Below are positions 12,422 to 25,037 of a stretch of DNA of 64,000 nucleotides, piece by piece; the stretch's first letter is position 1, and each line of letters begins with the position of its first letter. The notes beneath the pieces are model-generated. The model did not search any database. It saw nothing but the letters and a program-made list of their open reading frames with translations, and had not been told where the DNA came from. Position numbers and translations under genes: made by a program. The stretch lies in assembly GCF_035084215.1 (NCBI RefSeq), contig NC_090325.1:184450001-184514000 (forward strand). Reading direction: 5' to 3'. This stretch comes from Heptranchias perlo (taxonomy: Eukaryota).

Positions 12422-13865
12422 GTAAGTAATACCAATATTATTTGCAGTTAGCAACATTTTTATATTTTGTTATTGTTCATATCTTTTTCTGAGTGCATGT
12501 CCCCTCCCTCCAGTTAGCCTCTTCAATGCTAATTCATCTCCTGGTATAGAAGACAGTCCAACTTGCTGTGGCAGACAATACATACAGCACCATTTCTTAA
12601 TTTGGCAAAAGCTATATTTGCAGAGTGTGATAAGAAGACCTTTGAACAGATGACCTGACCAAGATTTGTCAAAGCAGGTATACAAGAATAAGGCCTCTAA
12701 TTTCCCCTCTCCAGATGGCCTGGAATAGATTGGGAACTTATGCTGCGGGGGAGAGCCCCATCCTGCTACTTTACAACACACCCAGGCACCAACTATAAAA
12801 TTCTTCTGTCATTTTAAACTTTTAATAAATCTTTTCCCCACTTACAACCACACTGCTAATAGCCAACATTGGCCAACTGCCCTCCCACGACTACTGATGG
12901 CTGATTCCATTGTTATGCTTCACTGCACTTTGTGACCTACTGACATTACAACGAGGCATCCATTAAAAAGACTGATGCATGAATGGTGCTTACGCCCAGA
13001 ATCCAAGTTTAAGTATTCTGAATGACGCAGTACTGCTAACAAATTAAAAAGTTGGTCCCAAGCTCAAGTAATTGAGAATTTTCAAAATAGCTCATAGTAT
13101 GTTTTGAATTGTGCTTAGACCGCTAAGAATCCTTAAACTTAAGTTATTGTATTGGTGTCACAGATTAATTATACCATTGTCGTTTTAAGTGAGCAAAAAA
13201 AACGTAGGTAAAACAGTCCTAAAAGAGCCCGTAAATACAGCAGTTGATTTTCTTTCTCATGCTCTACATGTTAGAGGACACTGGATGACTGACAAGGTAC
13301 TAAATAGAAGCTACCACCTGAGTCCAAGTGTGATTCTCTATTTAAATGTGAACCCAACAATTTAACACACAAGTGTCATAAATGATTCTGTTGGGTTGAG
13401 TCCCTCTTGTCGTAAACTGCAAGAGTGAATCTGAAATGGTTTAATTGGCATTTGAGCCCTAGGGTTGATGAGAGGCACTTATCTCCTGGCATATATCTAG
13501 TACTTTTATGTTAAATTGGAATTTTTAAAAAATTACACCAGCCACTCTAATTATGGGTTGGTGCTCAGGAACAGATCCTTATTAGATATCAATCTGTTGT
13601 GTAGGTTCACATAGGATTGCACCAGGATATTTTGGATAGCTAATTGCAAAAGAATTTACCTTCCTCTGAATAATATGTTTAAAAATAATGAAACGGGCAA
13701 ACTTGGTTACTCAAAATTAAAAAGAACTTGCAATATTTATTTTTGAACCAGGCCAATAATCTCATAAATGTATAATGCAGAGCAGTCTGCAGAGAGAGAT
13801 TACATGGCCAAAGTGATTATCTATTATCAGCCTAAACTTTTAGTAACCAGATCAAGCTTGAAAGT

Positions 13866-14003
13866 CATGATGTGGAGATGCCGGTGATGGACTGGGGTTG
13901 ACAATTGTAAACAATTTTACAACACCAAGTTATAGTCCAGCAATTTTATTTTAAATTCACAAGCTTTCGGAGGCTTCCTCCTTCGTCAGGTGAATGATGT
14001 GAA
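13866..14003 (-). mobile_element. Short Penelope-like pseudo-LTR insertion carrying a hammerhead motif
   Basis: 12-bp TSD AAGCTTGAAAGT (13854-13865, 14004-14015); same tail as the other copies. Confidence 0.88.
13955..13995 (-). ncRNA. Minimal type I hammerhead ribozyme motif
   Basis: Minus strand AUUCAC-CUGACGA-A-GGAGG(AAG)CCUCC-GAAA-GC-U-U-GUGAAU: intact core, 6-bp stem I, 5-bp stem II, palindromic stem III. Confidence 0.7.
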
Positions 14004-14111
14004 AAGCTTGAAAGTGTACTCGGAGACTATGGGACTAAAGAAGCTAGCTGGTCCAGTTCCAAAGACAAGTTCCAATATTTCACTGTTCAATATTTTCTGC
14101 CCCCTTTCTAG

Positions 14112-14209
14112 AAACCACACAAATCATCGGAATGAGCGCAACCCTGAATAATGTTAGTGATTTGCAGCACTTTCTGAAGGCAGAACATTATACCAGTAAC
14201 TTTCGACCT
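14112..14209 (+). CDS. HELQ: HELQ exon 6 (motif III, SAT)
   Basis: [36 protein letters not shown] boundaries. Confidence 0.96.
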
Positions 14210-15074
14210 GTAAGTAAGGTGAAAAGTAATAAAACCACATTGATGTTCTGTATTTAAATTTCATTTTGGAGACGCAATCTGTTGCAGATTTAAACTATGG
14301 ATTTCTGTTTCTCTTTTGCATTCTATATCAGTGTTAACAGTTAATATTTAACTACTACAATTAGTTGAGATCATTTACAGATAACAAATATTATGTGGGA
14401 TGTTTTGTTACAGATACTTGCTTTCATTAAGTCCCAAAAGGACTCCATTCAAAATTGCCCTAATTATCTTTCTTTGTAACCAGGTGCCTGTAATAGTTTT
14501 TGCACATGAAATAAAGAATTGGCTTTAAAACTTACATCTGCATAGGTGATACACAAGTGCCAAAACAGAAAGGAAAAATGGAAGATAAACAATGTCAGTA
14601 TATGGTTATGATGTGGAGATGCCGGTGATGGACTGGGGTGGACAAATGTACGGAATCTTACAACACCAGGTTATAGTCCAACAGTTTTATTTGAAAATCA
14701 CAAGCTTTTGGAGATTATCTCCTTCGTCAGGTGAATGAGTGAATGAGAGGTTCTCAAATCGCATATCTTATATTAGGCTGGGACACCATCACACCAATCA
14801 AAGGTGTCGTTGGTGTTCAGACAGGTTAGCCACGGAAAACAGTAGGTCCCAGTATACTGAATACACAATGGGTCAAATTACACAGACAAAGAAAGAAAGA
14901 GACCCGAAAGGCAGAGAGAGAGAGAGAATGTCCAGTTGTATTAAAAACAGATAACTTTTTTTTCCTGCTGGTGGGGTTACGTGTAGCGTGACATGAACCC
15001 AAGATCCCGGTTGAGGCCGTCCTCATGGGTGCGGAACTTGGCTATCAATTTCTGCTCGACAATTTTGCGTTGTC

Positions 15075-23125: not shown

Positions 23126-24085
23126 TTTGTGTCCTCCTCATAGCTTACTTTTCCCACCCAGCTTTGTATTGTCAGAACTTGGATACATTACACTCGGCCC
23201 CTTCATCTAAGTCATTAATATAGATTGTAAATAGCTGAGGCCCGAGCACCGATCCTTGCGGCACCTCACTAGTTACAGCCTGCCGACCTGAGAATGACCC
23301 GTTTATCCCTACTCTTTCTTTTCTGTCCTTTAACCAATCCTCTATCCATGCTAATATATTACCCCCAACCCCATGAGCCCTTACCTTGTGTAACAACCTT
23401 TTATGTGGCAGCTTATCGAATGCCTTTTCAAAATCCAAATATACTACATTCACTGGTTCCCCTTTATCTACCTTGCTAGTTACATCTTCAAAAAACTCCA
23501 ATAAATTTGTCAAACACTATTTTCCTTTCATAAAACCATGTTGACTCTGCCTAATCATATTATGATTTTCTAAATGCCCTGTTACCACTTCCTTAATAAT
23601 GGATTCCAGCATTTTCCTGACGACCGATGTCAGGCTAACTAGCCTGTGGTTCCCTGTTTTCTCTCTTCCCTCCCTTCTTGAATAGCAGGGTAACATTTGC
23701 TACCTTCCAATCCACTGGGACCGTTCCAGAATCTAAAGAATTTTGGAAGATCATAACCAATGGATCCACTATCTCTGCAACCACCTCTTTTAGAACTCTA
23801 GGATGTAGGCCATGAGGTTCTGGGGAGTGTCGGCTTTTAGTCCCATTAGTTTGTCCAGTACTTTTTCTCTAGTGATATATATTTTAAGCTCCTCACTCTC
23901 ATTTACACCTTGGTTCTCCACTATTTTTGGTATGCTTTTTGTGTCTTCTACTGTGAAGACAGATACAAAATATTTGTTTAACGCATCTGCCATTTCCATA
24001 TTCCCCATTATAATTTCTTCTGTCTCAGCCTCTAAGGGACCAACATTTCCTTTTGCTGCTCTCTTTCTTTTTACATACTTGTAAA
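23126..24085 (-). mobile_element. CR1 LINE, RT core (continuation)
   Basis: [58 protein letters not shown]. Confidence 0.92.
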
Positions 24086-24380
24086 AGCTGATCAGGAAGA
24101 AAATCACATTGCACCAAAACTGAAGTTGTAGTGTAAACACGCCTTGATTTAATGTCTTATCTGAAAGTAATAACATTACAGTCATTAATCCTTCACACAT
24201 CAACAAGTGAGAACATAAATTGTCACCAGTATCCTCACTAACAACTATTTGCATAAAAACACAGACCTAAAATGCTGTCAGATTAATCATTATTATAAAA
24301 ATGCCCTGGAGTGCTTTTGAGCCATTAATCTAATCTGATATAAATGATGATTATTATTGTTTAAAACTATGAAAGAATGG

Positions 24381-24563
24381 TAAACAATTTTACAACACTA
24401 AGTTATAGTCCAACAAATTTATTTTAAATTCCACAAGCTTTCGGAGGCTTCCTCCTTCCTCAGGTGAACGGTGGAATTTAAAATAAATTTGTTGGACTAT
24501 AACTTGGTGTTGTAAAATTGTTTACAATTGTCAACCCCAGTCCATCACCGGCATCTCCACATC
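24381..24563 (+). mobile_element. Miniature Penelope-like fold-back insertion, nested in an old CR1 3' fragment
   Basis: TSD ATGAAAGAATGG (24369-24380, 24564-24575); arms 24381-24434 and 24471-24524; CR1 continues gacagagtagataga..ctgtttcca to about 24920. Confidence 0.88.
24431..24467 (-). ncRNA. Minimal hammerhead motif (CUGAGGA variant)
   Basis: Minus strand UCAC-CUGAGGA-A-GGAGG(AAG)CCUCC-GAAA-GC-U-U-GUGG. Confidence 0.65.
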
Positions 24564-25037
24564 ATGAAAGAATGGGACAGAGTAGATAGAAACAGACTGT
24601 TTCCAGTAGTTGAGGGACCTACAAACAAGAAACCATACATACAGGTTTAAATGTAAGAGATTTAGAACAGAGAACAGGAGAAACCTCTTTACACAGAGAG
24701 GTATAAGGCTGTGGAATTCACTTCAGGGGTTAGTGTTTGAGGCAGAAACTATATGCACACTCAAGATTAGATTGGCTAGGTGGGTGAAAGAAAAGAGGAT
24801 GAAGGGAAATGGGATCAGGGTGAGTAAGTGTGATTAGGATTATTTGCTTATGTGAAGGGTTAACTTCAACACAGGCTGGTTGGGCCAAGTGGCCTGTTTC
24901 TGTGTTATAACTTCTATGTATTTCCAAATATAAATGCTGTTCCAAGTCAAAAGCATCCTTTGGACGCTAAAGTACTCAGTGCTCAGGTACTCATTGTGTA
25001 TTCATGTTTAATCTCCTCAATAATCTGCTTTCCCCAG

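What the first reader, a model, noticed from the sequence alone, without database searches (positions are those of the whole stretch)
13854..24575. Hammerhead ribozyme motifs with covariation across dispersed Penelope copies inside HELQ introns
Seen: three intact motifs (13955-13995 minus, 15429-15465 plus, 24431-24467 minus). Stem II covaries (GGAGA/UCUCC versus GGAGG/CCUCC), the only core change is at the free position 7 (CUGACGA versus CUGAGGA), and stem I stays paired (UCAC with GUGA or GUGG). All have an extra A after the core and a palindromic AGCU stem III with a CUU cleavage triplet. Established: PLE pseudo-LTRs carry minimal type I hammerheads that are thought to cleave as dimers. Inference: at least two recently active subfamilies were under selection for the fold.
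Basis: partly seen in the sequence, partly recalled or inferred. Interest (0 to 1): 0.7.

Follow-up and report, generated by a model that had tools for sequence, protein, structure and literature searches.

The report
Shark Penelope retroelement hammerhead remnants
These are short leftovers of a very abundant Penelope-like jumping gene in shark HELQ introns, each carrying the small, predicted self-cutting RNA motif already known from such elements, so the finding is mostly ordinary; two insertions fold back at the predicted cut site, which may record cutting inside the cell.

Summary
The three hammerhead motifs are real and lie in HELQ introns of a shark. They are 3' ends of an endonuclease-bearing Penelope-like element (likely Neptune clade): four insertions, each with a 12-bp target-site duplication, three of them fold-backs with the roughly 40-nt tail on one arm only. 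This matches published minimal type I PLE hammerheads. The covariation is one base pair and not significant (18 of 500 shuffles). Core and stems do differ less between the two subfamilies than the downstream sequence (0 of 30 versus 9 of 51 positions, P=0.012). Only one motif reads in HELQ sense, and it is predicted to be locked in a 430-bp hairpin, so a host role is unlikely. One lead: in two of four insertions the arms begin 0-2 nt from the predicted cut, a possible footprint of in vivo cleavage (about 25%). Inverted matches of the ribozyme itself confound this, and contig data showed no spike there. The scan has noted such elements on three other genomes; one of those notes rejects the footprint idea.

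The parts
13866..14003 (-). Insertion A: simple 138-nt 3' end of the element (hammerhead + 94 nt ending in ATG); 5' end 43 nt upstream of the predicted cut
   Evidence: 12-bp TSD at 13854-13865 and 14004-14015; empty site in organism C (skip of 150 with 12 letters fitting both sides)
13955..13995 (-). Hammerhead A, intact core, C3 at 13989, predicted cut between 13961 and 13960
14609..15075 (-). Arm B of fold-back insertion B/C: ORF end, 3' untranslated part, hammerhead, full tail
   Evidence: TSD at 14597-14608 and 15519-15530
14697..14736 (-).
15076..15518 (+). Arm C of insertion B/C: inverted partner of B, lacks the tail; 4 substitutions and one 2-nt gap from B in 434 columns
15075..15188 (+). 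Last 37 codons plus stop of a Penelope-like RT/GIY-YIG ORF
   Evidence: 78-81% identical to the C-terminus of 881-aa P0126 (Pfam RVT_1, E 3.8e-10)
15429..15465 (+). Hammerhead C, intact core; the only one in HELQ sense; predicted to be paired with antisense B in the pre-mRNA
24381..24470 (-). Insertion D, tail-less arm with hammerhead D (C3 at 24463, position 7 = G); 5' end 34-36 nt upstream of the cut
   Evidence: TSD at 24369-24380 and 24564-24575
24471..24563 (+). Insertion D, tail-bearing arm; begins exactly at G1.1, the first base after the predicted cut
2921..3069 (.). Insertion E (outside the finding): fold-back without core; arms begin at +1 (2971, minus) and +2 (2973, plus) from the predicted cut with one extra base between
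   Evidence: TSD at 2909-2920 and 3070-3081
4454..43766 (+). Host gene HELQ coding exons; A lies between the exons at 12349-12420 and 14111-14212, B/C between 14212 and about 18100, D between 19029 and 25036; E lies upstream of the start codon

Best explanation
The motifs are minimal type I hammerhead sequences in the terminal repeat of a high-copy Penelope-like retroelement, likely of the Neptune clade, left in shark HELQ introns as short 5'-truncated insertions that are likely inert. Shown: four insertions with 12-bp target-site duplications, an RT/GIY-YIG ORF end upstream of the motif, three fold-back structures, and a 38-45 nt tail on one arm only. Inferred from anole Poseidon biochemistry (PMC11167929): the element's protein nicks both DNA strands; each nick primes a cDNA at one of two internal start sites on element RNA, one tail length apart; the cDNAs run towards the RNA 5' end and their 3' ends are joined, giving a palindrome with one tail; a single priming gives a simple copy like A. 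Inferred from the literature: in source elements the palindromic AGCU lets two motifs form stem III and cut weakly after the CUU triplet, as a dimer or with help from the element's protein, to process element RNA. Selection for the fold acted on those source elements. The intronic copies decay (G12A in B) and have no tandem partner in HELQ sense.
For: TSDs of 12 bp around 4 of 4 insertions and tail on one arm in 3 of 3 fold-backs. ORF end matches P0126, which has RVT_1, a C-x4-C-x2-C linker motif and a GIY-YIG-like segment with the two cysteines; P0124 gave a weak Pfam GIY-YIG hit (E 0.0017, below cut-off). 18,016 of 15,364,642 contigs of a same-organism DNA run lie on the 271-nt stretch around A, and 481 and 881 in two other organisms; organism C has the empty site. 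0 of 30 structurally constrained positions differ between A and C against 9 of 51 downstream (Fisher P=0.012). An unrelated family in two metagenome contigs has the same motif, a third pair type at the variable stem II pair, an inverted RT fragment, and an ATG at a similar distance. The features match PMC4209133, PMC11167929 and the bioRxiv 2021.04.23.441226 description of tail and inverted copies.
Against: No cleavage or expression was shown. No full-length element is in the window, so the clade rests on a homolog's linker motif, not on a tree. In nearest-neighbour energies the double-hammerhead fold (-24.1, -17.7, -21.3 kcal/mol for A, C, D) is less stable than two monomers and than a stem II-swapped dimer, so dimer activity is not implied by folding alone. 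Rfam has no matching model. Stem II is 5 bp, shorter than the 7-8 bp given for Schistosoma motifs in PMC4209133.
Confidence: 0.88

Rival explanations
1. Add-on, most novel: some insertions were copied from RNA that the hammerhead had already cut, so arm ends at 0 to +2 are a genomic record of in vivo self-cleavage, while ends 33-45 nt upstream mark uncut RNA, possibly the transcription start.
For: D tail arm begins at offset 0; E arms at +1 and +2. Chance that 2 of 4 insertions have an end that close under uniform truncation is 0.008-0.02 over 140 nt (post hoc). E has no overlap at the turn, and D has none with the two upstream sequences seen in A and B. The other ends cluster: A at -43, D at -34 to -36, and loose ends at 13993, 13996 and 14005 (44, 31, 26 contigs in X4). 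All 4 skip joints listed for X4 land at 13959-13962.
Against: Four insertions only, pattern noticed after the fact. In one search none of the 6 loose-end places shown for X4 is at the cut (267 places over all runs not shown), and summed depth rises rather than falls upstream of the cut. Three of the 4 skip joints use 4-nt microhomologies, and 4 of 9 such options include the cut anyway (P about 0.09); 4 further X4 joints in table 5c are elsewhere. The ribozyme puts inverted matches right there: stem I (-35/0), an upstream repeat (-43/-1) and the AAGCTT palindrome (-6). PMC11167929 found no RNA-seq ends at the cut and no need for cleavage in vitro.
Confidence: 0.25
2. The turns near the cut arise without cleavage: cDNA ends anneal at the short inverted matches of stem I, its upstream repeat or the AAGCTT palindrome, or RT stalls at the folded motif, followed by trimming of the palindrome centre.
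For: 4 of 13 inverted matches of 4 nt or more in the relevant part of A start within -6 to +2 of the cut, and 5 more at +3 to +5. The spacer of the upstream repeat varies between A and B, so a D-type variant could give a 3-5 nt overlap. B/C turns about 380 nt upstream, at a CG that may be shared by both arms. No spike at the cut among the loose ends shown.
Against: E shows no overlap and one extra base; deriving it from an AAGCTT-centred palindrome needs 9 nt replaced by 1, against 3 by 1 from two run-off ends. The D-type upstream sequence is hypothetical.
Confidence: 0.6
3. The motifs were kept by the host to cut or regulate HELQ pre-mRNA.
For: Three insertions lie within 11 kb of HELQ introns; C is intact and in sense.
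Against: 3 of 4 motifs are antisense to HELQ. C is predicted to sit in a near-perfect hairpin of about 430 bp with antisense B (-851.6 kcal/mol). Site A is empty in organism C. The family is very abundant, so several copies per large intron set are expected.
Confidence: 0.03
4. They are non-LTR retrozymes, tandem hammerhead monomers that form RNA circles.
For: Short non-coding units with type I motifs; retrozymes are proposed to derive from PLE terminal repeats (bioRxiv 2026.07.22.740005).
Against: No head-to-tail array in the window; B/C carries ORF sequence, tail and TSD. One contig of X5 goes back 135 nt, so some tandem copies may exist elsewhere.
Confidence: 0.06

Closest known systems
Minimal type I hammerheads in pLTRs of metazoan Penelope-like elements (Cervera and De la Pena 2014, PMC4209133; dimer cleavage also in Lunse et al., known to me only through review PMC6765202)
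   Same: Core boxes, extra base between positions 9 and 10.1, G10.1-C11.1, short stem I, palindromic 15.2-16.2, mostly solitary copies from truncated elements, opposite-strand pairs 100-700 bp apart, reported in Neptune elements of fishes.
   Different: A shark family; stem II of 5 bp with a 3-nt loop. No activity data for this family.
Poseidon of Anolis carolinensis (Frangieh et al. 2024, PMC11167929)
   Same: Tail of about 40 nt on one end; both-strand priming would explain the fold-backs; hammerhead upstream of the tail.
   Different: There the ORF starts inside stem II and the tail lies in the ORF; here the motif follows a 3' untranslated part and tail-bearing arms end at or beside an ATG 92 nt after the cut. 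They saw no RNA ends at the cut; here two insertions have arm ends at it.
Inverted 5'-truncated copies and tail of EN+ PLEs (Craig et al., bioRxiv 2021.04.23.441226; Schostak et al. 2008, PMC2377424)
   Same: Inverted partner arm, tail on one end, target-site duplication.
   Different: Here all arms are very short (50-470 nt) and non-autonomous.
Non-LTR retrozymes (bioRxiv 2026.07.22.740005)
   Same: Type I motif, PLE-related, found in one chondrichthyan.
   Different: Defined by tandem units, absent in this window.

Membership tests
Minimal type I PLE hammerhead | Core CUGANGA, GAA-A, U-H | tested here: met
   A, C, D intact; B has G12A
Minimal type I PLE hammerhead | Extra base between 9 and 10.1; G10.1-C11.1 pair | tested here: met
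   5 of 5 aligned rows
Minimal type I PLE hammerhead | Palindromic 15.2-16.2 with no stable stem III; short stem I closing the ends | tested here: met
   AGCU in 5 of 5 rows; stem I 4-6 bp
Minimal type I PLE hammerhead | Covariation across families | tested here: inconclusive
   1 of 11 pairs changes on both sides (GC, AU, CG); 18 of 500 shuffles as high
Minimal type I PLE hammerhead | Self-cleavage as dimer or with protein help | not testable with these tools
   Needs an assay; folding energies do not favour the double hammerhead
EN+ Penelope-like element | RT plus C-terminal GIY-YIG ORF upstream of the motif | tested here: met
   Only the last 37 aa are in the window; they match the C-terminus of P0126 with RVT_1 and a GIY-YIG-like segment
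EN+ Penelope-like element | 30-40 nt tail on one end only | tested here: met
   Tail-less arms end at +51 to +56, tail-bearing at +91 to +98, in 3 of 3 fold-backs
EN+ Penelope-like element | Target-site duplication; inverted truncated partner | tested here: met
   12-bp TSD in 4 of 4; inversion in 3 of 4; empty site
EN+ Penelope-like element | Full-length or partial-tandem source copy | not testable with these tools
   No genome held
Neptune clade | Extra Zn-finger in the RT-EN linker; RT phylogeny | tested here: inconclusive
   C-x4-C-x2-C in 4 of 4 homologs checked; Nematis shares the feature; no tree built; the element's own RT is not in the window
Non-LTR retrozyme | At least two consecutive tandem units with complete motifs | tested here: not met
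   No such array in the window

The most novel reading that the evidence does not exclude
Penelope insertions fossilise ribozyme activity: a class of arms starts at the hammerhead cut because the reverse transcriptase ran off self-cleaved RNA, while a second class starts 33-45 nt upstream at the uncut RNA's start. Counting the two classes genome-wide would give the first in vivo read-out of Penelope hammerhead cleavage in the germ line, whose function is stated to be unclear.
Probability: 0.25. Interest if true: 0.65.

Novelty: new member of a known kind. Interest (0 to 1): 0.3.

Why it matters
As it stands it adds a shark family to a published class and shows textbook fold-back and tail anatomy. 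It would matter more if the arm ends at the cut site hold genome-wide: the role of hammerheads in endonuclease-bearing Penelope elements is open (bioRxiv 2021.04.23.441226 calls it unclear; PMC11167929 found cleavage dispensable in vitro and no cut ends in RNA-seq), and a very high-copy family makes the question testable by computation alone.

Tried and rejected
No whole genome is held, so no genome-wide alignment or R-scape test. Rfam at E<=1: 17 matches, none a hammerhead; the miRNA matches at 2920-3022, 15049-15118 and 24412-24494 are the fold-back centres and are below gathering scores. A 28-nt tail pattern found 0 matches in metagenome, viral and prokaryote collections; P0126 found no related loci in genome or viral contigs. 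The motif pattern found 5 metagenome loci: L002 and L003 are one related family; L001, L004 and L005 lack the stems and were dropped as chance. No RNA holder was listed; run X5 is only guessed to be RNA, so its 3,916 contigs say nothing on expression. All laid runs were contigs, which cannot show RNA ends; the known fold-backs D and E did not appear in the joint table, so one search is blind or cut for them. Its substitution table lists nothing in the core, but it also misses the position 7 and loop variants seen in the window, so I do not use it as evidence of invariance. The skip joints at 13959-13962 were first read as a footprint and then downgraded (microhomology null). A search for relatives of the P0126 N-terminus to test whether the tail ends at the ORF start codon returned only P0126 and one hemichordate protein: untested. 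P0122 among the peptide hits is a repetitive protein and was ignored. Lunse et al. (PMC5785218) is not held. Literature searches: Penelope+hammerhead+ribozyme (38 papers), +cleavage site+truncat+inverted (3), hammerhead+Penelope-like+dimer (24), Penelope-like+HHR+cleavage site+junction (8), Penelope+shark+Neptune+retrotransposon (0); none of the listings or passages I read reports insertion ends at the cut site, but subscription papers and supplements were not seen.
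Full report
Observation. The three motifs are present as described. C3 lies at 13989 (minus, copy A), 15433 (plus, copy C) and 24463 (minus, copy D); the predicted cut after the CUU triplet precedes 13960, 15462 and 24434. Each folds stems I and II as a monomer with no stable stem III; only A folds better than most shuffles (4 of 200). The loose core pattern has 11 matches against 5.6 expected, and Rfam gave no hammerhead match, so the case rests on homology and anatomy.

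Host. A window exon is 99% identical to HELQ of the sevengill shark Heptranchias perlo. tblastn of two shark HELQ proteins places coding exons on the plus strand from 4454 to 43766; A, B/C and D lie in three different introns.

Anatomy. The family has four insertions in the window, each with a 12-bp target-site duplication. A (13866-14003) is a simple 138-nt piece. B/C (14609-15518) is one palindrome: arm B on the minus strand has the full 3' end and a hammerhead with G12A at 14709, a CG to CA change; arm C has the intact motif. The arms differ by 4 substitutions and one 2-nt gap in 434 columns. D (24381-24563) and E (2921-3069, outside the finding) are short fold-backs. In 3 of 3 fold-backs one arm stops at +51 to +56 from the cut and the other at +91 to +98, at or beside an ATG. 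The centre of B/C encodes 37 residues that match the C-terminus of 881-aa P0126 at 78-81%. P0126 has Pfam RVT_1, a C-x4-C-x2-C linker motif and a GIY-YIG-like segment. By the clade description in bioRxiv 2021.04.23.441226 (passages read) the linker points to Neptune or Nematis; Neptune is the one reported in vertebrates (bioRxiv 2026.07.22.740005, first part and passages read). No tree was built.

Abundance and age. Of 15,364,642 contigs of a DNA run of the same organism, 18,016 lie on the 271-nt stretch around A; 481 and 881 contigs do so in two other organisms, mostly over the tail. One contig of organism C skips exactly 150 nt with 12 letters fitting either side, the empty site of A. A, D and E share 90-93 of 93-94 positions downstream of the cut; B shares 81-82 with them: two subfamilies.

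Covariation and selection. With A, B, C, D and one outside relative (L003; 2 of 5 metagenome loci were real and are near-identical, 3 were dropped), 1 of 11 pairs changes on both sides, with types GC, AU and CG; 18 of 500 shuffles reach the score. Within the window this is a single event. A better sign of constraint is that A and C differ at 0 of 30 core and stem positions against 9 of 51 just downstream (Fisher P=0.012). That constraint concerns source elements. In HELQ pre-mRNA only C is in sense, and it is predicted to be paired along about 430 bp with antisense B.

How it likely works. PMC4209133 (first two of four parts read) describes minimal hammerheads in PLE terminal repeats with the extra base, G10.1-C11.1 and palindromic 15.2-16.2, including Neptune elements of fishes, mostly solitary or in opposite-strand pairs, with no monomer activity and low dimer activity. 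PMC11167929 (first two of four parts read) shows for anole Poseidon that the protein nicks and extends both strands, starts cDNA at two internal sites a tail apart, and assists the ribozyme. Applied here by inference, two primings give a palindrome with one tail, and one priming gives A. My energy calculation does not favour the double hammerhead over two monomers or a stem II-swapped dimer, in line with weak or assisted activity. No cleavage was shown.

The one lead. The tail arm of D starts exactly at the first base after the cut, and the arms of E start at +1 and +2. Under uniform truncation over 140 nt, 2 of 4 insertions doing so has probability 0.008-0.02, post hoc. The remaining short ends are A at -43 and D at -34 to -36, where one search also shows loose ends (13993, 13996, 14005: 44, 31, 26 contigs; 3' ends at 13866-13867: 146). 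The sequence at -37 to -32 resembles an initiator element (consensus recalled, not tested), and Drosophila Penelope is transcribed from its upstream repeat (PMC2377424, passages read). This suggests run-off from cut versus uncut RNA. Against it: none of the 6 loose-end places shown for that run is at the cut, depth does not fall upstream of it, and the joint table did not list D or E, so the test is partial. Four skip joints land at 13959-13962, but 3 use 4-nt microhomologies and 4 of 9 such options include the cut; 4 other joints lie elsewhere. The motif also supplies inverted matches at -35/0, -43/-1 and -6. D could be an annealing product if its lineage has a shorter upstream spacer; E shows no overlap and is a little more simply derived from two run-off ends. 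I put it at 25%.

Verdict. Observation confirmed, interpretation largely known biology, covariation overstated. New member of a known kind; interest 0.3. Supplements of the cited papers and Lunse et al. were not seen and could already list shark motifs.

Noticed in passing
window 2909-3081: Insertion E: 149-nt fold-back of the same family, upstream of the HELQ start codon, turning at the predicted cut and lacking the core; gives spurious Rfam miRNA hits.
   Followed up: yes
window 14609-15518: The palindrome would put a near-perfect double-stranded stem of about 430 bp in HELQ pre-mRNA, a possible substrate for A-to-I editing or small RNA production.
   Followed up: partly
window 13864-13900: In two other organisms the laid contig depth is far higher over the tail than over the rest, so the tail is shared by other abundant subfamilies.
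   Followed up: no
window 13866, 14609, 24563, 3069: Tail-bearing arms end at or just past an ATG; three of them share 1-4 nt with the TSD. Relative L003 also ends in ATG at a similar distance, though at its contig end. The ATG may be the next ORF's start.
   Followed up: partly
L002 1-104: An inverted RT-coding fragment is joined to a sequence otherwise shared with L003: another fold-back Penelope insertion in a metagenome contig.
   Followed up: partly
window 46622-47724 and 43630-44189: Tandem arrays of about 43-nt and 40-nt units.
   Followed up: no
window 2311-2766, 11231-11926, 20689-21162, 30130-30636, 56309-56716: Fragments that read like CR1/L2-type LINE reverse transcriptase ends (label recalled, not tested).
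   Followed up: no
window 28167-28241: Short inverted repeat of C and G runs.
   Followed up: no
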